Part shown: in pieces, positions 1 to 32,449 of the stretch | Position numbering within the stretch: position 1 is the first letter of the stretch | Layout of the letters: every line of letters begins with the position of its first letter | Assembly: GCA_051530055.1 (NCBI GenBank) | Contig: JBMGUZ010000013.1 | Span: 1-58,880, forward strand | Direction: 5' to 3' | DNA length: 58,880 nucleotides | Origin: Neoechinorhynchus agilis | Taxonomy: Eukaryota; Animalia; Acanthocephala | Translations under genes and position numbers: made by a program | The notes under the pieces: model-generated | Databases searched by the model: none | Told to the model about the DNA's origin: nothing | The model's input: only the letters and a program-made list of their open reading frames with translations

Positions 1-377
1 GATCGCAGGATTCGAAACAGCGGCTATTCTCATGGCCGTGTTTCATTTTCTATCCCAAGGACGACTCCGGATCTTGTGGCTGCAAGTTTCTTCTGTCTTT
101 GGACAAATCTCTTGTAAGTGTCGCCTACTATTGTAAATATTCTTGATCTTTGTCTTAAGTGACCTATCAACAAGTGGGAATCGGATCGTTTGTTTTCTAC
201 GTCAAAGAGAAGGACCATCGATTTTGCTATCCATTTTATTTGGGGATTGCAAGATGCCTTTTTTCGATCTTATCCTTTATATTTTCTCAAACAGCGACAT
301 TTATTCTCGGCACCGAGGTAAAGAAAATATCAGAAGAGTTTTCTGAAACGCTTGTTCCTCCACTGAAATATTTCCTA

Positions 378-1993
378 GATGAAGAAGCCTTCCAAGTTAA
401 TGAATTAGGCTACCATTCTGGTACAATTGAGACGGATTCTTTTCAGTCGGAGAGGTTGATAGATCCGACAAAATCAGGCATAGGCGATCAACTGTTATAT
501 GATAGAATGTGGTTTTGGAGAAAATTCTCAACTTTCGGACGAATTGACGTCATTGAAACCATATCGATTATATAACGTTATGTGTTTTGATGTTTCGTGC
601 GTGCGCGATATATATTAAAAAAACCTAGATATTCATGTAACCTCAAAAACGTTCCTTTTTCGATCCCTACGTTGTCTGGGATAAGCGTGATCATCATACC
701 CACGCCTTTGCCGCATTAGTCAATTCTCTTATCTCGCAAAACCGCTCTACCATCTTTGGCCCGACCCCTCGATTGCAATGGGCTCTTTGTTAAATCTAAT
801 AGAATTTGCGATGAAGGCCTCCATGGTTCTCGCCTCTTCTATGAAGAAGCCTTCCAAGTTAATGAATTAGGCTACCATTCTGGTACAATTGAGACGGATT
901 CTTATCAGTCGGAGAGGTTGATAGATCCGACAAAATCAGGCATAGGCGATCCACTGTTATATGATAGAATGTGGTTTTGGAGAAAATTCTAAACTTTCGG
1001 ACGAATTGACGTCATTGAAACCATATCGATTATATAACGTTATGTTTTTTGATGTTTCGTGCGTGCGCGATATATATTAAAAAATTCTTGTCAGGAAGCC
1101 AAAGCATGACAGATAGAATGTGGTTTTGGAGAAAATTCTCAACTTTCGCTATCTCCTAATTAACCAAAATTAATTCTAGGAATTTGATCCGCACAACAAG
1201 AATATAAAAATATAAGCCAAAATGTTGCATACAGCCGATAGTTTTGACAAATTTTGATCGAATTCATGAAGATTCGCGTGTGATAACGCTGGAATCATCC
1301 TCGTAGAGAAATAAATTTTATGGACCAACTAGAAATAATCAATTCATTGGGCAAATAAAACCTAATGAGTTCTATAGACCAGCCGATGAGCAGCATTTTG
1401 GATTTAAAGAGGTTAAGGACAACCGCTTATAACATATCAGCCGTGATAAATGGCCAGACGCTACGAGGTTGTTTACACTTCTACGAGCTGATCGAACTCT
1501 AACAGGAGATGAAAATTTATGCACTGATGGTTTTACAGCCTATATATTCTATGCAGGATTCTCACATATCATTAAGAATTTAGTTCAAAGCCCAGAATGT
1601 GACTGAGCGTTATTGGAAGTACATACTGTATACAATAACCTTGGATTTTACAGAATCCCAATTCCATCAATATTCAATGACTGGTTTTCAGCAATTGGAA
1701 CCTTTACAGGCAAGAATAATGGAAGGATTTACCGCCCAGCCATCCCATTAATACCAACCGAAGGGCCACACTTTTCGAACTACTTTTATAGTCAAGAAAC
1801 AGCGCCCATCTTTCCAAACTTCAGAGCGTTATTTGCAAAAGCCGTTCTACTTTCAAGCGATACGACTTTTACGTTTACAGCAGCGCACCGAAGCAATGCG
1901 AGCCGTCGTCCCGGTATTTGCATCATTAGCAGCAGCTGTCCTCAACAGAGCAGCATTCCCTGCCTGTCAATAACTGAGAAGATATTTACAATT
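378..1993 (+). repeat. Left copy of a duplicated block (internal ~460-bp 'A' units plus ~850-bp 'B' segment); decayed coding sequence of unknown, possibly viral, origin
   Basis: gaagaagccttccaagttaatg recurs at 381, 844, 5094 and 5552. 1109-1993 matches 5669-6414 at about 99%, apart from a 138-bp in-frame indel (~1722-1859 present only on the left). Confidence 0.9.
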
Positions 1994-2069
1994 TCATATA
2001 TCATTGTCTTCGGGGTGAATTTGATTGTGCGTTGGCGAATCCTGCCCCCGGTGCTTTCGTTACTCATTT

Positions 2070-2116
2070 ATATTCGAAATATTTCACAAGGTTTTCCTTG
2101 CCTCTTCAGTCGATAT
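2070..2116 (-). ncRNA. Hammerhead copy in the inverted pLTR (intact core)
   Basis: Exact reverse complement of 4794-4840. Confidence 0.7.
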
Positions 2117-2165
2117 CTAAAATGGAGGATATGGACATCATGCACAGCCGGTCACGTCTGGGTGT

Positions 2166-2321
2166 CGCGGATCTGAGCTACACCCAGACGTGACCGGCTG
2201 TGCATGATGTCCATATCCTCCATTTTAGATATCGACTGAAGAGGCAAGGAAAACCTTGTGAAGTATTTCGAATATAAATGAGTAACGAAAGCACCGGGGG
2301 CAGGATTCGCCAACGCACAAT
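2166..2321 (+). repeat. 5' pseudo-LTR of PLE-1
   Basis: Identical to 4731-4886 except A>G at 2263; contains the ORF start ATG at 2278. Confidence 0.93.
2229..2275 (+). ncRNA. Hammerhead copy in the 5' pLTR with core mutation GAAA>GAAG
   Basis: Same motif as 4794-4840 but G at 2263 replaces A15.1. Confidence 0.6.
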
Positions 2322-4758
2322 CAAATTCACCCCGAAGACAATGATATATGACATTAAAAAACAGTATGGCGATAACTGTACGAAGGGCATTAGCCACCTG
2401 TTAAAAATGGAGATTAGGCTTCTTAGCATCAAGCAAGGCCTTAAATTCATGCAGACATGTAGGGACGAGAACTTAACACCGATGTGTGTCCGACTAAAAT
2501 CAGGCATAATTGGATTCCATGGATCATCACTGCAGCGCTCCTTTGAAAGACAATTATTGAACTTCGCCATTGTAGAGATGAGGAAACGAATATGTCACAT
2601 TAAGAACGATTCCATGAGCACATGGGAATATCTTACACGCACTCTTGACTATGACGATATTATGTGGCTAAATGGATACGTTAATGAGCGAATAAATGCC
2701 CAAACACTGGAGATTAAGAAACGACATAGCAAGAAGTTGGATCGACTGCGACCAAACATCCCTAAGGTAGATACATATTTTCTCAACAAGTCCAAACGAA
2801 TTTTTACGGAAGAGGAAGATGCCTTATTGAGCAAAGGTCCTGATTACATTGTTAAACGGCGAATATGTGAAACCCAGATTAGATGTGACACCGAGCTACT
2901 CATACATACCGCTCCAAACGTAACCTGTGAAGCAGCAGAATATGATATGATCGCGAGGGCCGGGAACAAGGGTATCTGTAATCCGGAATGCACAGTAATC
3001 AAACAACTTAAGAATGACCAGACAGTTACAATCCTTAAATCTGACAAAGGACGTGCCCTAGTTGCAGTAGATACTGAAGAGTATAAAGATGCGGCCCACA
3101 GTCTGCTGGACTCTGGCAAGTTCGTCAAACTCAGTGCCAATCCAACAGAAAAACGGGAGACACAACTAAATGCATTATTGAGGACTCTACGGAAAAATAA
3201 CTCGATCACTGAGCACTTTTACCAACAGACGAGGTCTTCCACAGCCAGGGCTTCCTTCTTGTATCTTTCCCCAAAAATACACAAACCAACGATACAATAC
3301 CGACCAATAATAGCCAGTTACAATGCCTTCAATCATCGTTTGGCCCGAAAAATCAATGCACTAATAAGAAGCGTCATGCCGAACACTCCGTCCTACATAG
3401 CTGACGGTCCTTCCTTTGCAACTCGAATGCGACTGGAAAAGTATGAACAGTGCAAATTCTTCACGGCCGACGTAACGTCCTTATTTACCAACATCCCACT
3501 TCAGGAGACAATTTCCATAGCAGCTGAACTTCTACACAATCAATGCGAAGAACCGCGCCTGGATAATAAAACGTGGACAACTCTACTGCAGTGGTGCACA
3601 TGCAAGACCGTTTTTGAATTCGATCAAGTTTTCTATGAACAACGCGACGGAGTTGCAATGGGTTCACCTCTGACACCCACTCTAGCTGATCTCTACATGA
3701 GAAGATGGGAAAACAACTTCATGAAGAAGCAACCCAACATCAAAAAGTGGTATCGCTATGTTGACGACGTGTTCATAGTCACTGATGATGAAACGAGCAT
3801 GAGAGACCTAAGCATTCCACTCAACATGCAGGATCCAAACATCCAGTGGTCAATGACTCAGGAAGATGAAGAGGGGGCTATCTCCTTTTTGGACGTAATG
3901 ATAAAACACGATGATAAAGGCAACATCAAAACACAGCTCTACCGCAAGCCAGGTATACCATGGGGTCCACCTCACTGGTCGAGCCACCAACCGTTCCACT
4001 ATAAAATAACAGCGGCAACGTCCTACTTCAAGAGGGCCAGGATGATTTCTTCAGAAAGCAGGGATTGGGAAGAAGAAAAACAAAGTATCACAAAAGTTCT
4101 CAGATCACGAGGCTTCCCTGAATATGCCATCAAAATCAGCCTGAAAAAGGCAACACATAGCGGGCATCGCAAGAAGAAGGATACCGCAAACATCTCCCCC
4201 AAATACGCTGGCTTCAACCACATAAGTGACAATGCGACCGGAAAACTGAGGCGCCTGAACTACCTCGTTCCAAATCTCTTTATCTACAACAAACGGGGCG
4301 CATCCATTGCGGGCATTCTCAAGAGGAAACCCAGTCAAGAGGCAAAATCAGGGATATACAAAATCCCATGTGCAGAATGCCCAAAGGTCTACATTGGACA
4401 AACCATGCAAGGGATCGGAAAGCGGATCTCGCAGCACAAACAAGCATGCAGGACATTCGACAAATCCTCTGCCATATCGAACCACCAGCAAACAATCCAG
4501 CACAGGGTAGATTTCGAAAAGGCGGCATTCCTAACCAGGGAACCGAATCTGAGGAGAAGACTGATTCTGGAGGCCATTCACATCCGAGGAAATTCGACGA
4601 TGGAAGGCAACAAATCTAACCATACGCTGGTGCTACCAATGTTGCGTAGCATGACGGGCAAATTAGTCGGCAACAAACCGCAAGAGGTGTGCGCGGATGG
4701 AACTCCCCACACTTCGGGTATTAGCAAACCCGCGGATCTGAGCTACACCCAGACGTGA
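2278..4758 (+). CDS. Penelope-like reverse transcriptase + GIY-YIG endonuclease (826 aa)
   Basis: RT motifs LYLSPKIHK..YRPII, ADVTSLFTNIP, GVAMGSPLTPTLADLYM, WYRYVDDVF, ISFLDV, LYRKP; GIY-YIG motifs GIYKIPCAECPKVYIGQT, RISQHK, LEAIHI..N. Confidence 0.96.
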   Translation: MSNESTGGRIRQRTIKFTPKTMIYDIKKQYGDNCTKGISHLLKMEIRLLSIKQGLKFMQTCRDENLTPMCVRLKSGIIGFHGSSLQRSFERQLLNFAIVEMRKRICHIKNDSMSTWEYLTRTLDYDDIMWLNGYVNERINAQTLEIKKRHSKKLDRLRPNIPKVDTYFLNKSKRIFTEEEDALLSKGPDYIVKRRICETQIRCDTELLIHTAPNVTCEAAEYDMIARAGNKGICNPECTVIKQLKNDQTVTILKSDKGRALVAVDTEEYKDAAHSLLDSGKFVKLSANPTEKRETQLNALLRTLRKNNSITEHFYQQTRSSTARASFLYLSPKIHKPTIQYRPIIASYNAFNHRLARKINALIRSVMPNTPSYIADGPSFATRMRLEKYEQCKFFTADVTSLFTNIPLQETISIAAELLHNQCEEPRLDNKTWTTLLQWCTCKTVFEFDQVFYEQRDGVAMGSPLTPTLADLYMRRWENNFMKKQPNIKKWYRYVDDVFIVTDDETSMRDLSIPLNMQDPNIQWSMTQEDEEGAISFLDVMIKHDDKGNIKTQLYRKPGIPWGPPHWSSHQPFHYKITAATSYFKRARMISSESRDWEEEKQSITKVLRSRGFPEYAIKISLKKATHSGHRKKKDTANISPKYAGFNHISDNATGKLRRLNYLVPNLFIYNKRGASIAGILKRKPSQEAKSGIYKIPCAECPKVYIGQTMQGIGKRISQHKQACRTFDKSSAISNHQQTIQHRVDFEKAAFLTREPNLRRRLILEAIHIRGNSTMEGNKSNHTLVLPMLRSMTGKLVGNKPQEVCADGTPHTSGISKPADLSYTQT

Positions 4759-4886
4759 CCGGCTGTGCATGATGTCCATATCCTCCATTTTAGATATCGA
4801 CTGAAGAGGCAAGGAAAACCTTGTGAAATATTTCGAATATAAATGAGTAACGAAAGCACCGGGGGCAGGATTCGCCAACGCACAAT
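4731..4886 (+). repeat. 3' pseudo-LTR of PLE-1
   Basis: Direct repeat of 2166-2321; contains the ORF stop at 4756-4758. Confidence 0.93.
4794..4840 (+). ncRNA. Minimal type I hammerhead ribozyme in the PLE-1 3' pLTR
   Basis: ATATCGA-CTGAAGA-G-GCAAGG-AAAA-CCTTGT-GAAA-TA-TT-TCGAATAT: CUGANGA core, stem II hairpin, GAAA, palindromic AUAU in place of stem III, stem I ATA-TCGA/TCGA-A-TAT. Predicted cleavage between 4832 and 4833. Confidence 0.75.
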
Positions 4887-6414
4887 GTAACCTCAAAAAC
4901 GTTCCTTTTTCGATCCCTACGTTGTCTGGGATAAGCGTGATCATCATACCCACGCCTTTGCCGCATGTGTCAATTCTCCTATCGCGCAAAACCGCTCTAC
5001 CATCTTTGGCCCGACCCCTCGATTGCAATGGGCTATTTGTTAAATCTAATAGAATTTGCGATGAAGGCCTCCATGGTTCTCGCCTCTTCTATGAAGAAGC
5101 CTTCCAAGTTAATGAATTAGGCTACCATTCTGGTACAATTGAGACGGATTCTTTTCAGTCAGAGAGGTTGATAGATCCGACAAAATCAGGCATAGGCGAT
5201 CCACTGTAATATGATAGAATGTGGTTTTGGAGAAAATTCTCAACTTTCGGACGAATTGACGTCATTGAAACCATATCGATTATATAACGTTATGTTTTTT
5301 GATGTTTCGTGCGCGTTATATATTAAAAAACCTAGATATTCATGTAACCTCAAAAACGTTCCTTTTTCGATCCCTACGTTGTCTGGGATAAGCGTGATCA
5401 TCATACCCACACGCCTTTGCCGCATGTGTCAATTCTCTTATCGCGCAAAACCGCTCTACCATCTTTGGCCCGACCCCTCGGTTGCAATGGGCTCTTTGTT
5501 AAATCTAATAGAATTTGCGATGAAGGCCTCCATGGTTCTCGCCTCTTCTATGAAGAAGCCTTCCAAGTTAATGAATTAGACTACCATTCTGGTACAATTG
5601 AGACGGATTCTTTTCAGTCGGAGAGGTTGATAGATCCGACAAAATCAGGCATAGGCGATCCACTGTTATATGATAGAATGTGGTTTTGGAGAAAATTCTC
5701 AACTTTCGCTATCTCCTAATTAACCAAAATTAATTCTAGGAATTTGATCCGCACAACAAGAATATAATAATATAAGCCAAAATGTTGCATACAGCCGATA
5801 GTTTTGACAAATTTTGATCGAATTCATGAAGATTCGCGTGTGGTAACGCTGGAATCATCCTCGTAGAGAAATAAATTTTATGGACCAACTAGAAATAATC
5901 AATTCATTGGGCAAATAAAACCTAATGAGTTCTATAGACCAGCCGATGAGCAGCATTTCGGATTTAAAGAGGTTAAGGACAACCGCTTATAACATATCAG
6001 CCGTGATAAAAGGCCAGACGCTACGAGGTTGTTTACACTTCTACGAGCTGATCGAACTCTAACAGGAGATGAAAATTTATGCACTGATGGTTTTACAGCC
6101 TATATATTCTATGCAGGATTCTCACATATCATTAAGAATTTAGTTCAAAGCCCAGAATGTGACTGAGCGTTATTGGAAGTACATACTGTATTCAATAACC
6201 TTGGATTTTACAGAATCCCAATTCCATCAATATTCAATGACTGGTTTTCAGCAATTGGAACCTTTACAAGCAAGAATAATGATACGACTTTTACGTTTAC
6301 AGCAGCGCACCGAAGCAATGCGAGCCGTCGTCCCGGTATTTGCATCATTAGCAGCAGCTGTCCTCAACAGAGCAGCATTCTCTGCCTGTCAATAACTGAG
6401 AAGATATTTACAAT
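4887..6414 (+). repeat. Right copy of the duplicated A/B block
   Basis: Starts at gtaacctcaaaaacg (equals 637) right after the 3' pLTR; ends at gatatttacaatt (equals 1981-1993), the point where the left copy meets the element. Confidence 0.9.
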
Positions 6415-6489
6415 TGGATATCAACTTGTTGACCTTTCTACTCGAAGTCACCCATCATTCGCCGAATGGATCATTTTAATTTCCATATA

Positions 6490-8030
6490 AAATCGATTTT
6501 ATACGCAAAAAGCTGAATGCAAGAAAACGAGAAGTTCTGGTATAAAATAGACGACAAAGTTCCGAGCCCTGAGAATCGAGCTTTGTATTAAAAGATGCAA
6601 ACGAACGTGTTTCGGTGATTATTCCCAAATATCAAAACAGTGATAAATAGCTTTCAGCATAGAAAAGTGTATGGCTTCCTGTGTATCCGAATGCTTTAAA
6701 TGGCTAAAAAAAGACGACAACTTCACTATTCAGCAAAATGGTCAATACTAAAGAAATGCCCTTTAATTACAGAAGTTTTGATATATTTCCAAGTAAACTT
6801 TTAGCAGTCCTTAGTATGATTTTTGTTAAGACCATAGACAATCATCGCTGATAATCGATTAATGAATTAACAATCAAACGCTGCAAAAGTTGTCACCAAA
6901 GCATTTCTTGATCTTATACGGAAATTATGAAATGAAACTAAAACTCTTCCTTACGAAAATATATTCCTAGAAAGTAGCATTAATAACGAAATTTTACCAG
7001 TAGACACTTCACGGAATAACACCACCATGGCCAAGAGATTTACGAAGGTTTCGAAAAACTATAATTTGTATATTATGAACGATTGGAGTTATTCGTTCGA
7101 TGACAAATGTTACGGAATGCGCCGTGTTCAATTCAACAAAGTCGAAGAGTTACATAGCAAAAGGACGAAGTTCAGAGAGTTAAATTTTATCTGTAATGAG
7201 GGCCTTGCAATACGGCTCTGGTTTAGAAACCATAATCTAAGGAAAAGAGGTGACGGCTGGGCAGAAAGTGTATTTCGAAAACTTACCAACCTCTATCGTG
7301 ATGGATTTGTTAATAGGAGATCGAAGACCAGTTAGAAATTCGAGCTGAACAAGGCCCGGGCAATCTATGGGACAAGGTCCGTAGATTCTTTGATAATGGT
7401 CTATGTTATCCATTAGTTAGAGCGAAATCTTGATAAGTTGAGTTGGGTCCAACATGTGAATTCTCCGCCTCCCTCCGAGCAAAGGCACTATGACAGATTA
7501 CAGGCAACAACGGACGGATTGACATTTGGGCTAATGCTCGACTACTCCGATTTCAATGTCCAGCATACGATAGAGAAATCCAAGCTCAAGTCACTTTAAC
7601 TATTGCCACTGTAGCGAAACTCTATTATGGTTGGGCCAAACATATTGGAAATGATGGCTGTGGGCATTACGTTCAAAAACTCCAGAAACTCCTGATGCTC
7701 TAGAGTGGATACTCAATTAAAGAAGACGTGGAATAGATAGAAAATTGCATCGGCAACTGTCTTCTGAGCGATGGAAGCTTTGAGACCAGTGCAAATGAAG
7801 GATGTCATGATCATCAAAGTGCCCATTACGGAAACGATCTCCATCTGATTGGCTACTCTCGCAACCAATCACAGAAGCGCGTTTGATCGCTATCTTTTAA
7901 TGGTTGACGATTTATTAATGATAGCAATGTTGATCGGTCATCGACTTACAGTCAATTTCCGTAACTCCCTGCAACTCTTTAACATTCCAGAGGTGAAATC
8001 GAGACAAAGAACGATGATCATTCAACTTTA
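6490..8030 (+). pseudogene. Endogenous viral element: decayed RNA-dependent RNA polymerase of a toti-like (Ghabrivirales-type) dsRNA virus
   Basis: Reading through stops gives SKTS*KFELNKARAIYG (7321-7371) and MLDYSDFNVQHT (7534-7569); after a frameshift near 7573, GNCLLS (motif B-like) and AHYGNDLHLIG (7821-7853, GDD-like). Order and spacing match totivirus motifs such as TKYEWGKQRAIYG, DF.DFNSQH, G.L.SG and HNGDD. Confidence 0.8.
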
Positions 8031-8604: not shown

Positions 8605-8976
8605 CTAGTCAGGTTGTAACCACTGGTGGCGGTGGTGGGATGCTCGACAAAATAATTCTTGTCGTTTCTGGCTAAGCTTCTTCAATAAATTAACGCGTTC
8701 TTCTTTGAGGCCACAAAGATCTTTTCCCATTTCTTGGAGATCATCAACAAAACTTGCAACTTTATTTTCATGAATCTTTATAAGATTTAAAACGGGACTT
8801 ATTAAATTTTTCGATAAGTTGTTTTTATAGGATTTGTCTTCGAAAGATGACATTAATTTCTCTTCTTCTTCGGAATAAATCTCTTTCATTATTTTGTTCC
8901 TCTCCTCGAATTCCTTCAATTTCTTTTCTTGTGCCTTAAATCGCTCGTCTATTTTCGTCCTATCGTCATTATCCAC
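8605..8976 (-). pseudogene. Partial duplicate of the coiled-coil protein exon at 9921-10469
   Basis: ~550-bp segment 8651-9200 is about 90-95% identical to 10081-10635; the ORF diverges into unrelated sequence after RQELF. Confidence 0.6.
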
Positions 8977-9562
8977 TCGCTTCTCAAATCGATTCGGGAA
9001 TCTTGGTTATGTTCTGTAAAAATCTTTCTCAGTCAGCATCTAAAATTAAAATGACAAATTTTGTGATCTATAATTTTCACAACACGTTTCTTTGTTGGAA
9101 TAGAAGAAGTTCGTGACTTTAAGACATGAATGAAATTATTATTTCAACATTGCAGTGGCACGTTTCACATTTCTATATGAATTTGGCAGCAATCAAAAAA
9201 AATTGACCTCCTTGGAATAGGGTTAGAAGCGACAAAAATATCTGGAACTCTTGGGCTATCTCTGGCCTTGTGTTCTATTCCAGAGGGAGACCGCCTGAAC
9301 AACGCCTGAAATTCCAAAGTACCTTTCTCAACGCCCTAGCCAAGCTACCTTACCCTTGTGGAAAGTTCCCTCACTGGGCCGCGGAAAAAATGAACAAATG
9401 AATCGACATTTCCAAGGACGACTTAGGCTGTACGTCCTAACAATCTCCACAGTTCATTATGCTACGTGGTTCGTTTTCGAATAAATCGATTATTATTATT
9501 ATCTGCATTTCGAACAATTTATTATCCTATCGTTAAACGGAATTAAATGTTTTTCTACATCT

Positions 9563-10469
9563 TTATTCGAAGTGATACTTCAATAAGCAATTTCTTTCCC
9601 TTAAGACTTCAATCTTTCGACTGTATCTTTCGATTTGTTGATCATAAATTTCATTAATCCGCTCGATCTCATTGGAAATTGCAGTATTGGCGTAATTTTG
9701 ATACTTGCTAATCTCTGATCTATAAACTTTGTGTGCGTCTTCTTCTGATTTTTTCATTTTCTCCGTCAAACTTTTCTTTAGCTCATTTTGTTCTTTGAGA
9801 AGTCTTTGTTGAGTAACTTGCTGATCAACACACTGTCGTTTCATATCTTCGAGACTGTCATTTTCCCGAGCGATGGCGGCTTTATATTCATTTAGTTTTA
9901 AGAGCATCAGCTGACAATTTCTAAAATCGGAAAAATCTTTCTATAAAAGGAAATTCGAAAAAGATTTTTCGAATACGAATTTTCTCTAATTTGGATTTAT
10001 TGTGCTGATTTTCCTCTTCAAGAAGTTTCTGATCAACAAATTGATCTTGCTTTATTGAAAAATTTGAAGTATCATTCGTAAATAATTCTTGTCGTTTCTG
10101 GCTAAGCTTCTTCAATAAATTATCGCGTTCGTCGTTGAGGCCACAAAGATCTTTTCCCTTTTCTTGGAGATCATCAACAAAACATGCAACTTTATTTTCA
10201 TGAATCTTTATAAGATTTAAAACGGGACTTAGGAAATTTTTCGATAAGTTGTTTTTATAGGATTTGTCTTCAAAAGATGACATTAATTTCTCTTCTACTT
10301 CGGAATAAATCTCTTTCATTATTTTGTTCCTCTCCTCGAATTCCTTCAGTTTCTTTTCTAGTGCTATAAATCGCTCGTCTATTTTCGTCCTATCGTCATT
10401 ATCCACTCGCTTCTCAAATCGATTCGAGAATCTTCGCGATGTTCTGTGGAAGTCGTTCTCAGTCAGCAT
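9563..10469 (-). CDS. Coiled-coil protein of unknown function (at least 2 exons; splice phase not resolved)
   Basis: Two adjacent E/K-rich heptad-like ORFs (9921-10469 and 9563-9907); acceptor-like ttttag directly before the ATG. Confidence 0.45.
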
Positions 10470-10974
10470 CTAAAATTAAAATGGTAAATTTTGTTATCTA
10501 TAATTTTTACAACACGTTTCTTTGATGGAATAGAAGAAGTTCGTGACTTTAAGACAGCAACGAAATTATTATTTCAACATTGCAGTGGCACGTTTCGCAT
10601 TTCTATATGAATTTTGCACCAATCGAAAAAAATTTGACCTTAAAAATTAATTTGGTTTGTGGAACAAGTGAATTTTTGTTGTCCAATTTTTTTTGTTCAA
10701 TTTTACCGGAAATTGTTTCCAAAAATAGAAATAACTCTTATTTAGGCGGATTTCTTGTAATATTCAAAAATTCGAAGCCTGGAGTTTTTTCATATAACTT
10801 TTGTACTATTTTTTATTTTTACTTTTCTTTTGGGTTTTTTTCGCTGAACCTGCTCATTTCGATAAAATTGTTTATTTGGAACCAGCGATATGCGAGCAGT
10901 TGAAAATTATTTAAAAGGCTTTTAATGCTCAATTTTTTATTATGCTAAGAGAAAATGAAGATAAAAGTGAAATC

Positions 10975-12790
10975 GGCGGTACGAGAAATTTTGTTCGTGA
11001 TAATATGAACAGAGCGTCGTGTCGCGCGATGTGCAAGAGCCTGGAGGCCGTGAGCCGCAATTGATCGATGGCTTTTGAAAGGAACGTTTTCAGGTTAGAC
11101 AGGTTACCGATTGGAGACCCGAGAATGTCAGCTGAGTCGGTTGCAGTTGTCTTTGCTCCGGAGATTACGGTGAGCAGTTTAGATGCATCCTCTTGGTCGT
11201 CCGAAATGATTTCGCATTTGTCCGTTCTCAGGAATAGTCCGATATCGGCATTGATTTCGGAGATGCTGTTGATGTCGCGGATGAGCTGGTCGATCGCTGG
11301 CGGACAACCTCTGTCATCGCGGAGCGGCATATTGAATTGAACGCGTTCTCCATGTCAAGATTGACCACAGCCGTTCCCTTATTGATACCATTTCGACTAT
11401 ACGCTTGTGCTGAGTGTACGGCCGCCTCGGCTCCAGCAGGAACTCCGACTCCTAATTGAACCGGCAAGAGTTGGTCGATCAATCGATCGGTGACGAACTG
11501 ACACGCGGCTTTGGATGCCAATCGACGGAAGGTACAAACAACGGCAATGGGACGAACCCTTCCACCTTTTTTTGTGAAAGCGATCAGCTTGGTACCACAG
11601 AGTAGACGCGCGACTGGAGGAGGTACGGAACCGCGGACGATTACGCGTGTGAGCTCGGTGATTGCGTTCAGCAATCGCGTACCTTGAGCTCCAGAAGAGA
11701 AGCAGGTCAAATCCCGTAAGTGTCGAGGGCTTAAACCATCATGCCCTCCAGCTGACGATGGCGGAAAGGACATCAGAGCGTAAGTGACGGTGGAGACTGT
11801 AATAGGTATGAGGGGATCGCGGTCGGACTCTGTGAACGACGGATCATAATTTGGCTTGAAGCAACTCCGTCTGCGTGGAGGATGCTTCAATTTTAAGGAG
11901 TCGAGGGTGTCCTTGTTCGGCGCGAGTAGGCGGTCCGTTCCGCTTACAAGTCAAACGGCACCCCTTAGGTCGCCGTCCTCCAGCTTCTCGGAGCATTTCG
12001 CACGTAGTTGAGATTCCGAGTCGTGAGGAGCATTACGGCGATGGCTCTGCCATCCAAGATGCTCGACTTGTTCAAAGGACTCGAAAGCGTCGGACCGCTT
12101 GCGAATCTTTTGACTGAGCGATTTATTCTCGTTGGCTTCAGCAGTTTGTGTGGGAACACGTAAGACGGCTTTGGGAAACACGTGGAGGTTGAACCAGTCA
12201 GATGGTACGGTTAGATCTCGTATGATACGCTCGATCAGGCATGCTAATTTGGAAGCTACAGAGGACCTGGCGCCTTGCGGGATTCGTCCAATCATGCGGG
12301 TACCGTGTGAAAGCATCTCGATCAGTGGTGGAGGTGGGGCATTCGTGTCTGTGTCCACAGTTGTGAGTTCGGTTAAATTGGATGGATTGGATGGATTGGA
12401 TGAAGACGGAGAAGCAGGCTGAGTTGGAGGTTTTCTGGATCCAGGGCAATGCGAACCATGTTGACCGTGGGAGCGGACGAGACCACTGAGAGTCGGTTTG
12501 AAGACACGAAGACAAACACTGCATTTGACGGATTTGCATTGGAGACTGGGTACCCCTTCGCCAGCAAGCGAAACAGCCGTCGCTGCGGACGTTGTTGCGG
12601 CATGCAAACTGCCTCCCTCGATAGAGGCCGCACTCGCACTGAGGTTTGAACTATCGGAATGCAATCTTTCCGGTGTTCCTCTGTTTACCATTGCGGGAAT
12701 GTTTTCGAAGAGCACATGGGTTTCTCCTCGCCGGCGAGCGACGCAAGCCGGTGCGGCGGACGTTGTTGCAGTGGTACTCAATTATCCTTA
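10975..12790 (-). mobile_element. CRE-clade-like non-LTR retrotransposon, 5' half (zinc finger + RT), frameshifted and 3'-truncated
   Basis: CSVC..(H)..HG zinc finger; RT motifs SAGGHDGLSPRHL, LIAFTKKGG.VRPIAV, QLGVGVPAGAEAAVH, NLDMENAFNSI, then DD and IGLFLRTDKCEI; the QGDP region appears deleted. Confidence 0.8.
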
Positions 12791-13021
12791 AACGTTTTTT
12801 ATATTGTTAAGCAAATCGAAGTGTTGATCATCAATCAATTTGTAAATATGCGCAAAGATAGTGAGCGGCCTGTATTCCCTTAAATGAAGAATCGACGTTG
12901 CTCAAATCATTATACCAAAGCGAGGACATTAATCTTGAGAATCTTAAATCTAAACTTCACAACTCGACTACTAATGTAGTTCAATCAAAGTCCACATAAC
13001 AACATTAAGCAAAAAAGCCTG

Positions 13022-13285
13022 GTGGAACTTGGCATCGAGCTCCGAAATATGATCAATATTGGCATCAATAATGCCAATTGGATGTACGCGCGAGCAAATA
13101 TCGGAGAGTTTATGAGGCGGCCAATAACTGCCAATGAAATTCGTGAATCGGGTATTTTAGAAATAATTGATGAAATGATGAATGAAAAAGGCAGCGAAAA
13201 GATTATTCTGTCCCTTAAAAAAATCAAGTACAGATTGCAGGTAATTCTCAAAAAGTTGACCCTCAAATCGAAGCGGAAAAGATGA
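13022..13285 (+). pseudogene. Short ORF weakly resembling a TFIIS N-terminal (LW) domain
   Basis: ITANEIRESGILEII...SEKIILSLKKIK loosely resembles the helical pattern; upstream frame is broken. Confidence 0.25.
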
Positions 13286-13393
13286 AATTAGGAAATAAGA
13301 TTACTAAGCGCTGCTTGGTTGTTCAGCCGCCTGTTTTATCTGGTGATGATTGTTTGATAGACAATCCGACTGAAAGAGAGAGATTTTATTCAA

Positions 13394-13432
13394 ACACCGA
13401 GCTTTCGCCGTCCAACGGCTTCTTCAGGGTGT
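13394..13432 (-). ncRNA. Minimal type I hammerhead ribozyme at the 3' end of PLE-2
   Basis: Minus strand ACACC-CTGAAGA-A-GCCG-TTGGA-CGGC-GAAA-GC-TC-GGTGT: perfect 5-bp stem I, 4-bp stem II, palindromic AGCU stem III, CUC cleavage triplet. Confidence 0.82.
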
Positions 13433-14890
13433 AATCTGCAATGCGAGTGGAGGTTCACATGAGATTCATGACGGCAGACAACTCATCCTTCTGGTTAATG
13501 AGTGTCCTACCGACCGATGCCCGCTAGAGTCCTCACGATCCCGGGTCTCTCGGGATATGATCAGCGCTTCCGCTATCGACAGTTCGACGGGATCCTGCGC
13601 TTTGTACATTATGCGCGTGGACAGCTGAACTGTTCCATCCGGGTGGACTCGCGAATAATGTTTCGCCCACGGTGTCGTCACATACGATTGCGCACTTGGG
13701 TTCAACGAGTTTCGTACATGCTCGGTTACTCTTTGGCGAAGTGGCCTTTCTGTTTTGCCCACGTACGTGACCAAGTGGCCACGGTCAATCCGACACCGTT
13801 CACACCGGATCTCGTAGACCACACTGCTCTGATCGCACATCTTCCAGTCACGATCAATGGCTTGCTGACGCTCCTCGTCCATCCTCGCACCTGCTGCGTA
13901 TCTGCACATTAGGCACGACCGAGGGCATTCCTGATGATCCTCATGATGCCTCGTTCTCGTCAGCATCCTCCGCAGCGTTCTACACCCTCTGTGCACAATA
14001 CGCACATTCAACCCTGCTTGCCTGGGCAGTACTTTAACTCTCTTCGTGAATATTTCACTCACGTACGGAATTCGTAGGATCGGCCTATCGTCCTTTCGTT
14101 CCCTCATGGGTCCAGCGTCTCGTCTAATTCTATTTTCCACTTCTCGCTGGAATCCTTCGATCTCCTCTGTCGAATATCCGTTGTCCGCGAAGATCTTGTT
14201 TACTGCTTCGACCGCTCCACGCTTCGCGTCCCACGACGATGAGCAGGTGGTTGCCGATTTATGCATACCAGCGTATATCGCCGCTTTCATCGCCCAAGGA
14301 TGGTGAGAATCTCGGTGCATCACAATCGACTTCCTGCATGGCTTTCGATACCAATTGAAGTTGGACACATCGTCGGATTTGAAGCGGAGATTGAGGAATG
14401 GCAGATAGTCCGAAGGTTGGTCTCTCGTAACCCGAATCCTCCTATTCGAGTCCATTGAATTTAATAGTGATTCAATGGTATCGACCTCATCATCCTCGGT
14501 GAAGTTCAGCAACACATCGTCCACATAGCGGAGGTAAACTTGACTCGACGCTAAATGTGGATAGATGTGCAGTCTTTCCAGGTCCTCGAGGTAGAGGATG
14601 GCCAATACCGGAGCTAAACTATTTCCCATTGCGAGACCACGAACTTGCTTATATAGCTGGTTTCGATAACGAAAAAGGGTTGCACTTCAGTACCAATCGA
14701 GTCAGACCAATAACATCGTCTGGAAGTAGACCGAAGAGGTCATGAGGATCGAGCGGTAATCCATATGACGATCCGTCAAGTTTTCTATGCCCTCTCGCAA
14801 CAACAATTTTCTCTCTGTGTGGTCATCATCTCGCGAGGCACGACCGAGGGCATTCCTGATGATCCTCATGATGCCTCGTTCTCGTCGTCG
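13394..14890 (-). mobile_element. Second Penelope-like element (different family), 5'-truncated and rearranged; RT C-terminus + GIY-YIG
   Basis: YKQVRGLAMGNSLAPVLAILYL, YLRYVDDV, LPFLNL, WYRKP, YVGKTERPLRQRVTEH, IAEALII; hammerhead and AATAAA downstream of the ORF. Confidence 0.88.
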
Positions 14891-14959
14891 ATCTCGGTCT
14901 CTTCAGACCTGGTGCTGAGAATCATCCAACCACACACTCGAATAGAGTCGCACCCACCA

Positions 14960-15800
14960 CCTGAACTGATTGAAATGCACGCTCAATGGACATCAGTGTT
15001 CGGGCAGGTCGTTCCAACGGAAACAAACTCCCAAAAATGTAGGACTGCCTTGCTCCACACTGCGTATTATCAGCAGCTTCTTAACTCATGCTCGTCTCCC
15101 AACGATAGAGCTCGTCTCTTGGCAGTCTCAGCTCCACACTCCAGCGACTTCTTGAAGGCTTTCCCAATCACATCTGTTGGCACGATGCTGGATGATCAGG
15201 CCATCACCGTCGCTGTGGGACTTCGGTTGGGCATCGAATTCTCAGGCTCATATACATGTCGGTGCGGTGAGACAGTGAACGGATCGGGAACTCACGGCCT
15301 TGACTGCAAGCGATCAATTGCTCGCCACGCACGGCACTCAGCAGTCAACCGCATAATCAAGGAAGCCCTCTCAACGGCCGGGTTTCCAGCTCGACTCGAA
15401 CCAGTTGGACTCTCCCAGAACGACGGTAAACGCCCTGATGGAGCGACTCTCCTCCAATGGTGCTCCGGGAAAATACTGGTTTGGGATTTTACCTGCCCCA
15501 ACACGGGTATGCCACCTCAAAGGCGGGAGCATTCGCCAGCTTCAGCGAGGAAAAGAAGCGGCAGAAGTACTCCTCGCTCGATGGGCATCAATATATTTTC
15601 ATTCCGATTGCGGTGGAAACACTGGGATGTCTCGGAAAAGAAGCCGATTATTTCCTCTCACGACTGGGAGGGATGCTAAAACATGCCACCGGCGATATGC
15701 GATCCAGCAGCTTCCTGTTGCAGCGAATCAGCGCGGCGATCCAACTCGGCAATGCCGCGGCCATCAAGGAAGCTGCCGAACAAACATAACATTTGAAGAC
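14960..15800 (+). mobile_element. CRE-clade-like non-LTR retrotransposon 3' fragment (CCHC finger + restriction-like endonuclease), frameshifted
   Basis: CRCG..HGLDC..RH.AVN, RLEP.GL..DGKRPDGATL..W..GK.LVWDFTC, FIPIAVETLG, QRISAAIQLGNAA. Confidence 0.85.
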
Positions 15801-16614: not shown

Positions 16615-19557
16615 TTAACAAAAGTACAAGAGACCACTCAGGCGATCGCTGAGTGAAAGAATAAGAAACTTCAATTTCTTCTCTGTAGGTTTCACTTCGT
16701 GGCTCACCTTTTCATCTCCATTTTTGACAACCAAGTCATCTTCATAAAAATAATCTCGGACTGTTGGATCGCAGAGCTGCAAAAATTCTACATAATGTCT
16801 CGCCCGGAAAGCGACGTGATGGGCATAATAACAAGGTGCCGGGATTGAGACTGAACGAAAGCATTTAGCATACAAATGGCACAAATTAAAAGTTACTTGC
16901 ATAAGATTATTCTCATTAAATCCAATGGAATCATAGATTAATCTGTACCGCGTTGGTCTCGATGTTCCTTGGATTCCCGCGTGGCTCACCAGAAATGCAT
17001 CGACTATGGAATCCATGCAGACTTCTGGGGAATATACGGTTCCGGGAAGTGGATTTCCGTTGCGATCGCCGTCTCTTCGATCAGAAGGGAACATTCGGAG
17101 ATGATGCCGCTTCTGGACGACAACGACGCTGAGTTTAATCTCGTCCCCCATTCCTTCTTTTCGACAGGCTTCTATTATGCCATTGACTTCGAATCGATTG
17201 ACTAAGTCGAGTTGAGTATCGGAAACGCCATCTCGGTACAAAAGGATTCGGTCCGGCAAACATTTGTTTCGCTCTCGATACTTTCCCAGTATCCTTCGCA
17301 TTATTGTTTCTAAGTTATAAACAATTTCTATACTTGACTTTGAAGCTTGAGGATTTTTCTGAAGGGAAATCTCGGTAACATAGGAATGAGGAACAAAGTC
17401 AACCGAAGCTACAACGGCGGCTATCGAAACTCGGCTAAGGTGTCCTTGACTATTCAGAACCCGATGGGTAACATCGAGACCGACAAACATGGTCCTTCCG
17501 TAATTTCCAATTTGTGGATTAAACTTAAATGGCACTGGATTTCGTGTTAGACTCACGTTAACACCGCCGAGCTTTGCACAAAGTTTGTTACAAATATTTG
17601 CGATAACCTGACCGTCCGGATTACCGCTCCTATCTCGTCTTTTTATCGCTTTGTCAGTGATGAACTGAGTAATCGATCCGCTGACTAGTTCCGCAGCAGC
17701 CTTAACTGCTGAATATTGGTAGTTGTTCCGTCTTGCAAAAAAGAATGTCACTTTTGTAGTATTTCCTGATAAGATATATCGAGGAAATTGAACGTTGAAT
17801 TCGTCTCGATGCCACATATGACGATGTCCATTTTCAGTCAGATCGATTCCATATCTTCGTGCCGTTTCAATCAGCCTCTTTAAGAATTGCTGGACGCTAT
17901 CCTCGTCTATTGACAGATTATCCGGAAAAATGTAATAAGACCATGTCAAGTCTTTTCCAACTCCTTTAAAGAATGAAAATTCTTTACCGGCATTCCAGGC
18001 TCCATGATGCCTCTGATATGTTATTTGACCTTGAGAATGATAAATCATTGGTATCGGTAAAAGACCGGCATCGACTACAGCCATACGATCGGATACTTCG
18101 AGTCTCCATTCTTTAAAATATTTCGCACACTCGTTGTTCTTGTTTGATTGCAAATACATTAATTTCGAATCAATATTAAACTTCCTCTGAGTCGGAGAAA
18201 GTGTTGTTCTTTTAATAACATCCGCCATTTGATTCTTAAGTTCTTCGTTCTGTACCTTTCGTGCTGCGAGATATACAAGTTCCAATGGAACTACGGCATT
18301 TCCTCTTTTACCCGTCGCAACGGTCACAAAATGAGGCAAACAATCATGGCCGTAATGTTGTTTGAAAAATTGACCAACGCTAATATTCGAGTGACCATCG
18401 TCATTGTTTAAAACGAATTTGTATTCAAAAGGTGATTCCATCTTAAAGGAATTAAAGGTGGCGTACCGCTTATGCTTCCCTTCCGAATCATATTTTACAA
18501 TGATCTTTGTTCGGTCCTTCAAAAGTTCACTAACCGATTGTAATAATTGAGGATTAGTTTTGCTGGCGGTTAAATCGTCTTCCGATATTCCTTTTTTCCG
18601 GAGGAAATCAAGCAACGATATTTCGGGTGCGATAACTGCATTTGCGACATCGACATTCAATGCTAAAGCGTCGAATGCAATCACGGCACTGGCGAAGATT
18701 CCGTTAAAGAGTCCTTTGAATGAATCGAGTCGATGAGCAGGTGGATCATTTAAAGGAAAAAAAGATCTCCCAAAGTTAATTAGAAGATTCGATAGTGCGA
18801 ATTTAAAGACAATATCGATTATTGCCATCTGCGGACGGAGTGCAACAGATTTTCCGATCATGTTTCTTATCAATGCAATGTCCTGCTCCATATCGATTTC
18901 ATTGGTTTTCTTAAATATAACCAAATACTTTTCAGAGACGAGTATTGAACACTCATCGCTGCCTGTTGCGAAATCGCTTAGTGAGTAAACCACACGACCA
19001 CCGTTGTATACAGTTCGGTACTTGAATTCAGATTCACGATCATTTGCCATTTTCAATATCGCTTTTTTAATTATAATTCGCTGTTTTAATGAAGATAAGA
19101 CGTTTTCTCCGTTTGGGTTATTGACAACCAAACCTATATCTTTATCTTCAATCTTCACATCGTACTGCTTTACTCTGAAAGGAGTTGAATTGGTCAGTGG
19201 AAAATAATTGATCATCATTTTCATCGACTTATTTAATTTAATTTTTGTACAGTAAACATTTTTTGGACGTGTTTCCACGCTGCATTCTTGTCGCAGCGTA
19301 TTTATTTCAAAACATTCAAAATCATTAGGTTTAAAAGTATGGATCGACATCACTTCTTTTGCAATCAAGCCTATGAATTTATGGGATTCATCTATCGACA
19401 TATTAATTATTTTGCTTTCTTCATTATATTGTCTTTGTGGTTCTGCATCGTTTCCCCTTTGACCTTGATTTCTCTGGTACCGTCCACGGTTTGGCCATCT
19501 CCCACCTCGATATCTTCGGTTGCTTCCATTGTACCGATTGTTGTTATTGCTGGACAT
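16615..19557 (-). CDS. Argonaute (AGO-clade, divergent), single exon, 980 aa; PAZ-MID-PIWI with predicted catalytic DEDH tetrad
   Basis: PAZ (ISVGQFFKQHY..VVPLEL), MID (YSAVKAAAE..GSITQFI, NICNKLCAKLGGVN), PIWI (GLDVTH, SIEIV, LLYRDGVSD, QKRHHLR, FLVSHAGIQGTSRPTRY, SVSIPAPCYYAHHVA, terminal LYFC); RG-rich N-terminus. Confidence 0.96.
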   Translation of the reverse strand: MSSNNNNRYNGSNRRYRGGRWPNRGRYQRNQGQRGNDAEPQRQYNEESKIINMSIDESHKFIGLIAKEVMSIHTFKPNDFECFEINTLRQECSVETRPKNVYCTKIKLNKSMKMMINYFPLTNSTPFRVKQYDVKIEDKDIGLVVNNPNGENVLSSLKQRIIIKKAILKMANDRESEFKYRTVYNGGRVVYSLSDFATGSDECSILVSEKYLVIFKKTNEIDMEQDIALIRNMIGKSVALRPQMAIIDIVFKFALSNLLINFGRSFFPLNDPPAHRLDSFKGLFNGIFASAVIAFDALALNVDVANAVIAPEISLLDFLRKKGISEDDLTASKTNPQLLQSVSELLKDRTKIIVKYDSEGKHKRYATFNSFKMESPFEYKFVLNNDDGHSNISVGQFFKQHYGHDCLPHFVTVATGKRGNAVVPLELVYLAARKVQNEELKNQMADVIKRTTLSPTQRKFNIDSKLMYLQSNKNNECAKYFKEWRLEVSDRMAVVDAGLLPIPMIYHSQGQITYQRHHGAWNAGKEFSFFKGVGKDLTWSYYIFPDNLSIDEDSVQQFLKRLIETARRYGIDLTENGHRHMWHRDEFNVQFPRYILSGNTTKVTFFFARRNNYQYSAVKAAAELVSGSITQFITDKAIKRRDRSGNPDGQVIANICNKLCAKLGGVNVSLTRNPVPFKFNPQIGNYGRTMFVGLDVTHRVLNSQGHLSRVSIAAVVASVDFVPHSYVTEISLQKNPQASKSSIEIVYNLETIMRRILGKYRERNKCLPDRILLYRDGVSDTQLDLVNRFEVNGIIEACRKEGMGDEIKLSVVVVQKRHHLRMFPSDRRDGDRNGNPLPGTVYSPEVCMDSIVDAFLVSHAGIQGTSRPTRYRLIYDSIGFNENNLMQVTFNLCHLYAKCFRSVSIPAPCYYAHHVAFRARHYVEFLQLCDPTVRDYFYEDDLVVKNGDEKVSHEVKPTEKKLKFLILSLSDRLSGLLYFC

Positions 19558-21163
19558 CTCTAAATAAACTTTATTAGTGGAGAGTAATCAATCGACAGTT
19601 TGAGCTAACGAGAAACGTTCTTGAATGAAAAAATTGATCTATTCAATTTTGTCAGAGTGCAAATGTAGAGAACGCAAAGAGATCAGGATCGATATTCGAT
19701 CATTCGGTAAAATGGCTAAATACCTCTAATAGATTGTTTTTCCGTTATAAAGTGCGAAACGCAAATCTGAAGAAAACTGTACTCTCTATGGGTGCGTTTA
19801 TTATTTACGATTAAAAAAATAATTTGCTCTTCATACCAATCACGATTAATAAACATATTTTTCAATATGGATTATCTTTAATTAAAGGTATTATTTAATA
19901 TTATCAAATACAATTTATCGAACGAAATTTTTACATGTTCGTAAAGTTAGAAAATCGGTTATTGCCCAAAATTAGATTGAACGCAAATCTGATCTATGAC
20001 CTTGATGAAATTATAAAGACAATAAATCTGTTGCAAATGAGAATCCCTTCGCTGTGGGATTTTGCATGCTTTTTTCGTAGGCCTAAAGTCCCAGAAATAA
20101 ATAATTACTCCTAAGAAGAGTTTTCTTCAATAGCGTTTACATTTAAAAATGCTATTTTAGGTTTTGAATAAACGTCTTTACATTCAAGTTTTCAAACGAA
20201 TTGAGTTCTATTTCAAAACTGTATGCAGTATCAAATCCAAAGGAATTAAATTAAAGTGATTTAAAATTATCCGTTAATAGATAATTTATTGGCTGGATAG
20301 CTCTCTATTTCGACGCAGCCAATAACAGGCCAAGTTTTAAACAATAAATGAATATGCGATGGCTGTGGGAATTCTTGAATTTTTCGTAATATCTAATTTC
20401 TATGATGTAAAATTTTTGCAGAAGCGAACTTTGTATTTTATTTTGCTTCAAAGAAAAAGCTAAAACATTAAGACAAGTTGGATTTATTGTGCTGATGTAA
20501 ATTTTACTTTCGATCAGACATGCCGTTATCAACTGATCTAATTCGCTTACTTCATCGATTTCTTTTATTTAGAACTATATTTCGAAAAGAAATCGACCGT
20601 ACCATATAAATGCACGAGTTCGTTTGCATCCCAATGGTCAAGTTTTAAACGTCTGTCATTGTTGATAAGAAATCGGAATTGATAGAGAAATTCATTGCCA
20701 CTTGAATAACTATTTATTCAATTAAAATAATTTGCTCAAAAATAGCGATGACTCACGTTGATAAAGTTTTACTCAATTTCTGTGAAGTTTCATCTATCGC
20801 ATTTTTGCTAAGTTTACTATTTGGATTCTCTTTGTCATTATTTCATCTTCTTGTTTCAAAGTTTTCATTGAACGTAATTTTTTTATCAGATTTTACCTTC
20901 TTTATTCGACCAAACTTTGCTTCTTGTTCGACTGAGTTAGGGAATTTAACCATTTACCGGTGGACTTTTTAATACCCGAGATAACTTCTACAAACTGATT
21001 GAGAGAAAAATTTCAAGTTCAATTCAATATGGTACTCATTTTAAGATGTTGCGATTTAAATATTGACACTTACGCCTTTTCTAACCGATTTGTTTTAATG
21101 CTGTTTCGGAAAAACTTATTAAATTGTATATCTTCCAAAAACAAAAATATTTTCACTTAATTA

Positions 21164-26859: not shown

Positions 26860-27432
26860 TATTGATGATTTTCTGTAAGAATAATTTTAGTCAAGAAGCC
26901 GATCTAACTGTATACTTTCAAAGATAGAAGCAATATAAAGCTTTTGAGTGAAAAGAATTAGGGGGGTACTCTATCTTGCTAAGCGTTATAAAATTTCAGC
27001 CAATCAGCGTGTGCATAACAGCGGGGCACCGGTATAAAATAGGAAATAAACCCTAAAAATAATTAATCATCACGTGCCGCTTTTTTTAACCGTGTAATGG
27101 ACGCTTTATCTTTGAATTTAATTATATATTTTGTTTGAATTACTAATTTGTTTTACACCCTTTGGATTTTTATATCATCACCAGGTTGTTATTTTAAGCG
27201 ATTTCTGTAGAAGTTATTTAAATTATCATTTTATTTAATTATTTGCTCAAATGGTGCATATAAATTGCTTTCTTTATTTTTAAGGGTAAGTATCAATTTC
27301 AATAGTGAGAATAAATGGCATGAGACTCTTATCTTAAATGTGTGATTTTGTTTCTCATTCTTAAAACGGTCTCCAGCTGTGAATTGCATGCTGATTGGCT
27401 TAATTTTCAATATGGCAAGCAATAATCCTCAA

Positions 27433-31894: not shown

Positions 31895-32449
31895 TACTTT
31901 TTATTGCGAATTATCAAATGATTTATTTATTTGATAATTTTCGGCCTTCGCTTAGGCTTTTTTCGGTCCATACAATTTATTGATTTCCATATTTCGGCAG
32001 CCAATGAAACACTAACAATCGTACCGAAATATCGGACCCAATTAATTTTGCTTCAAATTTTCCGCCATATAAAAACACAATTCAATTTAACAAAATTGAT
32101 GACTTTCGGATCAAAACGCAAAATAAAAGCGAAATGAACGAGCAATAATTTTTATTGATCGATTATTGATTGCGTCAATGGGTTCGTATTTCCATAATGA
32201 GTACAAAGTGTTTAGACTAAAGTCTTGTAACTTTTCCTCTTTTTTTAAATTTTTCGATGTTGCTTATTGAACCGACTCAAAAAATCGGAAATCGTGACTA
32301 TATCGTCGGTTTCAGTGAATTTCAATTTTAAATAGCCATTGTTTCGCAGAAGGATTTTAATTTTTAGTAGTGATCGGAAATGCAACAAAATCTTCTCATC
32401 AAACGATACTTTTCTCTCTAAAAACTTCATTATTGAAATCAAACGGGAT

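What the first reader, a model, noticed from the sequence alone, without database searches (positions are those of the whole stretch)
6490..8030. Endogenised toti-like dsRNA virus RdRp not visible in the ORF track
Seen: conceptual read-through gives KFELNKARAIYG, MLDYSDFNVQHT, GNCLLS and HYGND in order, broken by several stops and a frameshift near 7573. Known: these correspond to conserved totivirus RdRp motifs (F, A, B, C). Non-retroviral RNA virus EVEs need a retroelement RT to integrate, and in arthropods they accumulate in piRNA clusters. Inference: a fossil infection by a toti-like virus. Upstream sequence (1-6490) may be more of the same virus (RdRp N-terminus or capsid).
Basis: partly seen in the sequence, partly recalled or inferred. 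Interest (0 to 1): 0.8.

Follow-up and report, generated by a model that had tools for sequence, protein, structure and literature searches.

The report
Toti-like virus fossil in thorny-headed worm
A broken piece, about 400-450 bases long, of the copying-enzyme gene of a toti-like double-stranded RNA virus lies in the DNA of a thorny-headed worm; it likely records an old infection by a virus lineage whose only named relatives also sit in thorny-headed worm genomes.

Summary
The endogenous viral element (EVE) is real but smaller than reported. RdRp homology is firm at 7321-7575 (Pfam RdRP_4 above cut-off; motifs F and A) and continues upstream across a missed frameshift to about 7169; it may reach 7616. 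That is about 15% of the RdRp gene, with four stops. "GNCLLS" is not supported as motif B; "HYGND" is only weakly supported as motif C. Upstream DNA is not detectably viral: it is an intact Penelope-like retroelement inside a duplicated flank, probably younger than the EVE. The host is the acanthocephalan Neoechinorhynchus agilis, inferred from a named gene model. Raw WGS and Hi-C reads cover the fragment, probably at three or more copies per genome, so it is integrated DNA. It groups (100/99 support) with five Pomphorhynchus laevis genome-encoded RdRp pieces and three unnamed 6.3-6.4 kb contigs with intact RdRps. Toti-like EVEs are known in nematodes and sea lice; I found none reported for Acanthocephala. 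It is an ordinary kind of fossil, valuable mainly as a host marker for an undescribed virus lineage. A piRNA role is untested.

The parts
7321..7575 (+). Toti-like RdRp fragment, frame +1, motifs F (7336-7371) and A (7534-7569); stops at 7333 and 7414
   Evidence: Pfam RdRP_4 E 1.4e-7; 48-54% identity to P0004/P0006/P0007; stops listed
7169..7312 (+). RdRp fragment upstream of motif F, frame +2; stops at 7181 and 7238; frameshift near 7305-7320
   Evidence: tblastn 38-50% identity; frameshift-aware alignment, 0 of 40 shuffles for each of 5 references
7578..7616 (+). Tentative continuation after motif A, frame +3
   Evidence: Extends the alignment for P0004 and P0006; alone 16 of 150 shuffles reach it
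7617..8030 (+). Unassigned sequence holding GNCLLS and HYGND; not shown to be RdRp
   Evidence: No profile hit; not above shuffles; weak C-like and D-like pieces in the wrong order; copia RT not supported
6763..7092 (+). Broken copy of a host-repeated sequence, 60% identical to an N. agilis hypothetical protein (P0005); not RdRp
   Evidence: no Pfam or Atlas hit; raised read depth
6669..7894 (.). 1226-bp block, containing the EVE, that is absent from another allele or paralogue
   Evidence: Joint 6668 to 7895 in X8 (27 reads), X6 (66 reads) and contigs of X1, X2, X3, X5
1990..4886 (+). Neighbouring intact Penelope-like element: ORF 2278-4758 (RT + GIY-YIG), terminal repeats 2166-2321 and 4731-4886, inverted repeat 1990-2168; context, not part of the EVE
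   Evidence: Pfam RVT_1 E 3.2e-11, GIY-YIG E 6.4e-4 below its cut-off; repeats 99.4% identical
4885..6421 (+). Flank duplicated at 379-1999 (97-99% identical, mosaic); no viral homology found

Best explanation
This is a non-coding fossil of a toti-like dsRNA virus polymerase gene in the DNA of a thorny-headed worm: a piece of viral RNA was likely copied into DNA by a host retroelement reverse transcriptase, likely inserted in the germ line within repetitive DNA, likely multiplied with its flanks, and has since gathered stops and frameshifts. Shown: RdRp homology at 7169-7575, four stops, at least one frameshift, presence in raw genomic reads, variant forms. Inferred: the reverse-transcription route (established knowledge for non-retroviral RNA virus EVEs, recalled), three or more copies per genome, and that the source virus infected acanthocephalans. 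The adjacent Penelope-like copy is inferred to be a later arrival, not the agent.
For: Pfam RdRP_4 above cut-off. 43 hits at E<=1e-3; the best RdRp hits are 48-53% identical. Careful tree: window + 5 P. laevis proteins + 3 Logan RdRps form one side of a branch at 100/99; quick tree 99 for 8 rows. The P. laevis proteins lie on 62-198 kb contigs. WGS run X8 and Hi-C run X6 (one sample) cover the piece, and contigs bridge both ends by more than 31 bases (X2 6915-7280 and 7251-7906). X8 depth is about 108 over 7304-7520, against at most about 33 expected from 1523 Mb read on a 46.2 Mb genome. Variant bases at about 40-65% of reads and alternative joints lie inside or beside the fragment. The Penelope ORF is intact, its repeats are 99.4% identical, and it ends 2.3 kb upstream.
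Against: No integration footprint was seen (no target-site duplication, poly(A) tail or retroelement junction), so the route is not shown. Only 83-85 residues of the window enter the trees (28% of columns). The host of the three Logan contigs is unknown. Copy number assumes that 'organism A' is N. agilis and that the assembly size is right. The 3' sequence 7617-8030 is unexplained. The published caveat that P. laevis contigs might come from other organisms in the sample (PMC12548735) applies to those five relatives.
Confidence: 0.85

Rival explanations
1. Same origin, but the fragment is kept and multiplied because it lies in a piRNA-producing region and supplies antisense small RNAs against the virus (compatible with the best explanation).
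For: N. agilis has piRNAs with ping-pong and clustering (PMC12256650 passages). Sea-louse EVEs make piRNAs (PMC10287012 passages). The contig is rich in retroelements and satellites. Contigs of runs guessed to be RNA hold the piece at low depth.
Against: No small-RNA data were examined. Neighbouring elements lie on both strands. The nearby Argonaute is AGO-type. At about 50% protein identity to the nearest known intact RdRps, nucleotide pairing to those viruses is unlikely. The RNA label of those runs is a guess.
Confidence: 0.2
2. One reading: one long EVE at 6490-8030 with the whole F-A-B-C core, eroded by deletions, and more viral genome upstream.
For: The C-like piece at 7818-7862 is reached by 2 of 150 shuffles. 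A paralogous read form keeps HYGND with silent changes (table 5c). Small deletions occur in the proven part.
Against: Motif B is not detected (69 of 150). A D-like piece lies upstream of the C-like one. Part of the C-like match overlaps a short palindromic repeat shared with unrelated contigs. No RdRp or capsid homology upstream.
Confidence: 0.12
3. The neighbouring Penelope-like element reverse-transcribed and carried the viral piece in one event.
For: An intact RT + GIY-YIG ORF lies 2.3 kb upstream on the same strand.
Against: The EVE lies outside both terminal repeats and outside the duplicated flank, which ends at 6421. The element is intact while the EVE is heavily decayed. Many reads leave the element at 4886 into other sequence, so copies of it occur without this flank.
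Confidence: 0.06
4. Contamination or mis-assembly: the sequence comes from a live virus or from DNA of a fish or crustacean host.
For: Worms are sampled from host intestine; this caveat is published for P. laevis.
Against: Stops and frameshifts exclude a live virus. Raw DNA reads of a separate 2026 sample cover it at flank-like depth. The same contig carries an N. agilis-labelled gene with paralogues only in that species.
Confidence: 0.03

Closest known systems
Ghabrivirales ('Totilivirus') RdRp and capsid EVEs of Trichinella nematodes (PMC13483474; passages and section 16 read)
   Same: Roughly 0.5 kb partial RdRp of a toti-like virus in a parasitic worm genome, near transposon-derived genes; presence/absence forms among genomes.
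   Different: Different phylum. Those RdRp EVEs are recent and close to known live viruses; this one is decayed, probably multi-copy, and about 50% identical to its nearest intact relatives. Whether the virus clades are related was not tested.
Toti-like EVEs of sea lice, Caligus rogercresseyi (PMC10287012 passages; P0009 and P0011 here)
   Same: Same broad group of animal-associated toti-like RdRps; Caligus genome proteins are among the 43 hits.
   Different: They fall outside the 9-row clade. piRNAs were shown for Caligus EVEs and are untested here.
Pomphorhynchus laevis RNA-virus EVEs (Brown and Firth 2025, PMC12548735; abstract, section 7 and passages read)
   Same: Non-retroviral RNA virus RdRp fossils on contigs of an acanthocephalan assembly.
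   Different: Those 18 are Mononegavirales (cytorhabdovirus-like). The main text has no occurrence of 'Ghabrivirales' and does not mention N. agilis EVEs.
Unnamed Logan RdRps P0004, P0006, P0007 (1027-1040 aa, on 6.3-6.4 kb contigs)
   Same: Nearest relatives, 48-54% identical over motifs F-A; same supported clade.
   Different: Intact ORFs, probably live viruses; host unknown.

Membership tests
Ghabrivirales-type (toti-like) RdRp | RdRP_4 (PF02123) match above the curated cut-off | tested here: met
   31.3 bits against 22, E 1.4e-7
Ghabrivirales-type (toti-like) RdRp | Motifs F and A in order and spacing | tested here: met
   Ungapped alignment to P0004, P0006, P0007 over 84-86 residues
Ghabrivirales-type (toti-like) RdRp | Motif B (SGxRxT..NT) and motif C (GDD) | tested here: inconclusive
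   B not detected (69 of 150 shuffles); C-like piece weak (2 of 150) and it reads GND
Ghabrivirales-type (toti-like) RdRp | Phylogenetic placement among toti-like RdRps | tested here: met
   named neighbours are Totiviridae sp., Hangzhou and Hameenlinna totiviruses. No non-Ghabrivirales outgroup was included.
A named ICTV family within Ghabrivirales, or the proposed Deltatotivirineae | Clustering with reference members | not tested
   No ICTV reference set was fetched
Non-retroviral endogenous viral element | Present in host genomic DNA, joined to host sequence | tested here: met
   WGS and Hi-C raw reads, bridging contigs; host genes on the same contig
Non-retroviral endogenous viral element | Fragmentary and decayed | tested here: met
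   About 150 of 1027 residues; 4 stops; 1-2 frameshifts
Non-retroviral endogenous viral element | Integration footprint (target-site duplication, retroelement junction, clean empty site) | tested here: inconclusive
   The 6668-7895 joint removes viral and non-viral DNA together, with no shared letters at the joint
piRNA-cluster EVE | Antisense 1U-biased piRNAs map to it | not testable with these tools
   No small-RNA run was offered
Ty1/copia RT (considered for 7617-8030) | RVT_2-type homology | tested here: not met
   No Pfam hit. Profile from 27 of 114 fetched loci: chunk scores <=3.8 bits against background 6.4; only a 9-residue VDD match, reached by 7 of 100 host pieces

The most novel reading that the evidence does not exclude
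The fragment marks an undescribed, long-standing lineage of toti-like viruses specific to thorny-headed worms. It was endogenised independently in two classes (Eoacanthocephala and Palaeacanthocephala), the three intact 6.3-6.4 kb contigs are its living members, and the amplified copies may feed the worm's piRNA system. These would be the first dsRNA viruses assigned to the phylum.
Probability: 0.4. Interest if true: 0.65.

Novelty: new member of a known kind. Interest (0 to 1): 0.4.

Why it matters
Almost nothing is known about acanthocephalan RNA viruses (stated in PMC12548735). A DNA fossil ties a virus clade to the worm germ line rather than to the fish or crustacean it was sampled from. 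Finding the same clade in genomes of two classes gives a testable host for three unnamed intact virus-sized contigs. It also weakens the published contamination caveat for P. laevis EVEs. Small-RNA data for this species exist (PMC12256650), so the piRNA question is directly testable. As a mechanism it is ordinary.

Tried and rejected
No whole genome was held, so paralogues could not be read. Word-index homologue search with the RdRp piece found nothing among longer proteins; PDB gave only chance hits. The coding-like stretch 1202-2170 (P0003), suspected from memory to be a capsid: no hit in Pfam, homologue search (37), viral contigs (41) or PDB (42); the single-sequence model had pLDDT 31.9, so no fold search was run. 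It stays unexplained and has no language-model look-alike search. P0005: no Pfam or Atlas hit. Copia RT reading of 7617-8030 rejected; the 27 profile sequences were chosen by motif and not confirmed by Pfam (one search failed on a frame slip). No relatives of P0002 in metagenome contigs. Rfam: 0 matches at gathering score. No RNA holder listed on record, so nothing is claimed on expression. Capsid profile from 8 ORFs of distant relatives: best 4.6 bits, outside the region. Trees: one search left out P0005, P0022 (non-RdRp), P0018, P0021 (motif filter) and L003, and is the quick tree; one search used 21 of the 43 hits, chosen by me. Names were looked up for 29 of 43 hits, including all 8 other clade members. 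Literature: 'acanthocephal' + 'totivir' 0 papers; searches listed no report of toti-like EVEs in Acanthocephala; one search listed four papers on Penelope and EVEs, none read. The Brown and Firth supplement search gave 0 hits even for 'Pomphorhynchus' and the zip is cut, so their tables may list these proteins unseen. Earlier scan notes: none for this genome or sequence.

Full report
Observation. The four peptide strings are in the window: KFELNKARAIYG (7336-7371) and MLDYSDFNVQHT (7534-7569) in frame +1, GNCLLS (7752-7769) and HYGND (7824-7838) in frame +3. With stops read as X, the frame +1 piece matches Pfam RdRP_4 at E 1.4e-7, 31.3 bits against a cut-off of 22; the frame +3 piece has no RdRp hit. 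A full HMMER search gave 43 proteins at E<=1e-3; the best RdRp hits, P0004, P0006 and P0007, are 48-53% identical over residues that map to 7321-7575. Three of them scanned as RdRP_4 at 120-144 bits.

True extent. In a frameshift-aware alignment this upstream piece beat all 40 shuffles for each of 5 references. On the broad profile alone it is weak: 11.6 bits, with 2 of 3872 background chunks higher. Downstream of 7575, 2 to 22 of 40 shuffles reached the observed score across 6 references. With a clade profile cut into five windows: post-A helix 7578-7616, 16 of 150 shuffles; motif B, 69 of 150 and GNCLLS not chosen; motif C-like 7818-7862, 2 of 150; motif D-like 7651-7689, 1 of 150; whole region, 6 of 150. 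C-like and D-like are in reversed order, so at most one fits a collinear fossil. The EVE is therefore about 7169-7575, possibly to 7616, about 150 of 1027 residues, with stops at 7181, 7238, 7333 and 7414. My own alternative for the 3' part, a copia RT, failed.

Surroundings. 2278-4758 is an intact 826-codon ORF with RVT_1 and a weak GIY-YIG match. It has direct terminal repeats at 2166-2321 and 4731-4886 (99.4% identical) and an inverted copy at 1990-2168; this is the layout of a Penelope-like element (recalled). The flanks 379-1999 and 4885-6421 are duplicates. None of this matches RdRp or capsid-side ORFs of related viruses; the capsid of this clade itself was not available. 6763-7092 is a broken copy of a sequence annotated as an N. 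agilis hypothetical protein on a 16 Mb scaffold. Because the Penelope copy is intact and ends 2.3 kb away while the EVE is decayed, I infer it inserted later.

Host. The Argonaute at 16615-19587 matches a gene model labelled Neoechinorhynchus agilis on a contig of the window's exact length; its only other strong hits are two paralogues in that species. It is closer to AGO (E about 1e-50) than to PIWI (about 1e-24) structures. N. agilis is an eoacanthocephalan and P. laevis a palaeacanthocephalan.

Integration and copies. Five runs hold 68-73% of the sampled words; none is on record as RNA. Raw WGS (X8) and Hi-C (X6) reads from one 2026 sample under the same species label cover every bin, and contigs bridge both ends of the RdRp piece. 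X1 may be the assembly's own source and is not independent. X8 depth over 7304-7520 is about 108, like the lowest flanking bins. 1523 Mb on a 46.2 Mb genome (PMC12690905 passage) gives at most about 33, so I infer three or more copies of the whole block, if the species and size are right. Variant bases at about 40-65% of reads and joints at 7285-7320, 7482-7544 and 7819-7890 agree with that. A form lacking 6669-7894 occurs in all six runs that had anything laid (X9 had none). It removes viral and non-viral DNA together, so it may be a deletion rather than an empty site.

Relatives. In a careful tree of 22 rows, the window groups at 100/99 with five P. laevis proteins from 62-198 kb contigs (P0008, P0010, P0021, P0040, P0041) and the three Logan RdRps from 6.3-6.4 kb contigs. 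The quick 43-row tree gave 99 for the same set without P0021. The P. laevis pieces are not one group (3 changes needed), which suggests several integrations. P0004 is 37-38% identical to P0006 and P0007 and 24-28% to the other full-length hits. The window contributes only 28% of columns and P0040 has a long branch. Outside the clade lie Caligus genome proteins and named arthropod-associated totiviruses.

Mechanism. Shown: a decayed RdRp fragment in genomic DNA with variant forms. Inferred: capture of viral RNA by a retroelement RT, germ-line insertion into repeat-rich DNA, duplication with the flanks, decay. It cannot encode a polymerase. No footprint identifies the retroelement. A role as a piRNA source is possible because the species has piRNA clusters and ping-pong (PMC12256650 passages), but it is untested.

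Comparison and novelty. Toti-like EVEs of this size are published for Trichinella (PMC13483474) and sea lice (PMC10287012). For Acanthocephala I found only Mononegavirales EVEs in P. laevis (PMC12548735 and its preprint). Searches showed no toti-like report, but that paper's supplement was only partly visible and subscription journals are missing. The added value is the clade and its likely host.

Noticed in passing
window 28900-31900 and 4807-4834: A 28-bp satellite (about 103 copies) has a unit matching part of the Penelope terminal repeat. That part is the stem plus GAAA half of a hammerhead-like motif (CTGAAGAG...GAAA at 4800-4828; motif recalled, fold z -2.4; no Rfam hit). The satellite may derive from the element's ribozyme region.
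   Followed up: partly
window 16615-19587 (-): AGO-type Argonaute in one long open frame, with paralogues on other short contigs of the species (27 and 34 kb); a Tudor-domain gene lies at 25687-26886 (-).
   Followed up: partly
window 1202-2170 (+), copy at about 5760-6421: Coding-like stretch with few stops inside the duplicated flank; no homologue found.
   Followed up: yes
window 11228-15679: Other retroelement remnants: RT-like 11228-11950 (-), a second RT + GIY-YIG fragment 13466-14686 (-), unassigned ORF 14714-15679 (+) (all below cut-off).
   Followed up: no
window 7842-7884: Short palindromic repeat (TGATTGG...CCAATCA) shared with otherwise unlike contigs and missing from one paralogous form.
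   Followed up: partly
window 50739-54656: 181-bp satellite, about 21 copies, each with an internal palindrome.
   Followed up: no
window 8650-9209 and 10080-10640: 561-bp direct duplication, 94% identical; a contig of run X2 at depth about 530 skips 9922-9973.
   Followed up: no
proteins P0010 and P0040 (P. laevis): Gene models fusing viral RdRp pieces to other sequence; P0010 ends in an MRP-L28 match. Probably annotation artefacts over EVEs.
   Followed up: no
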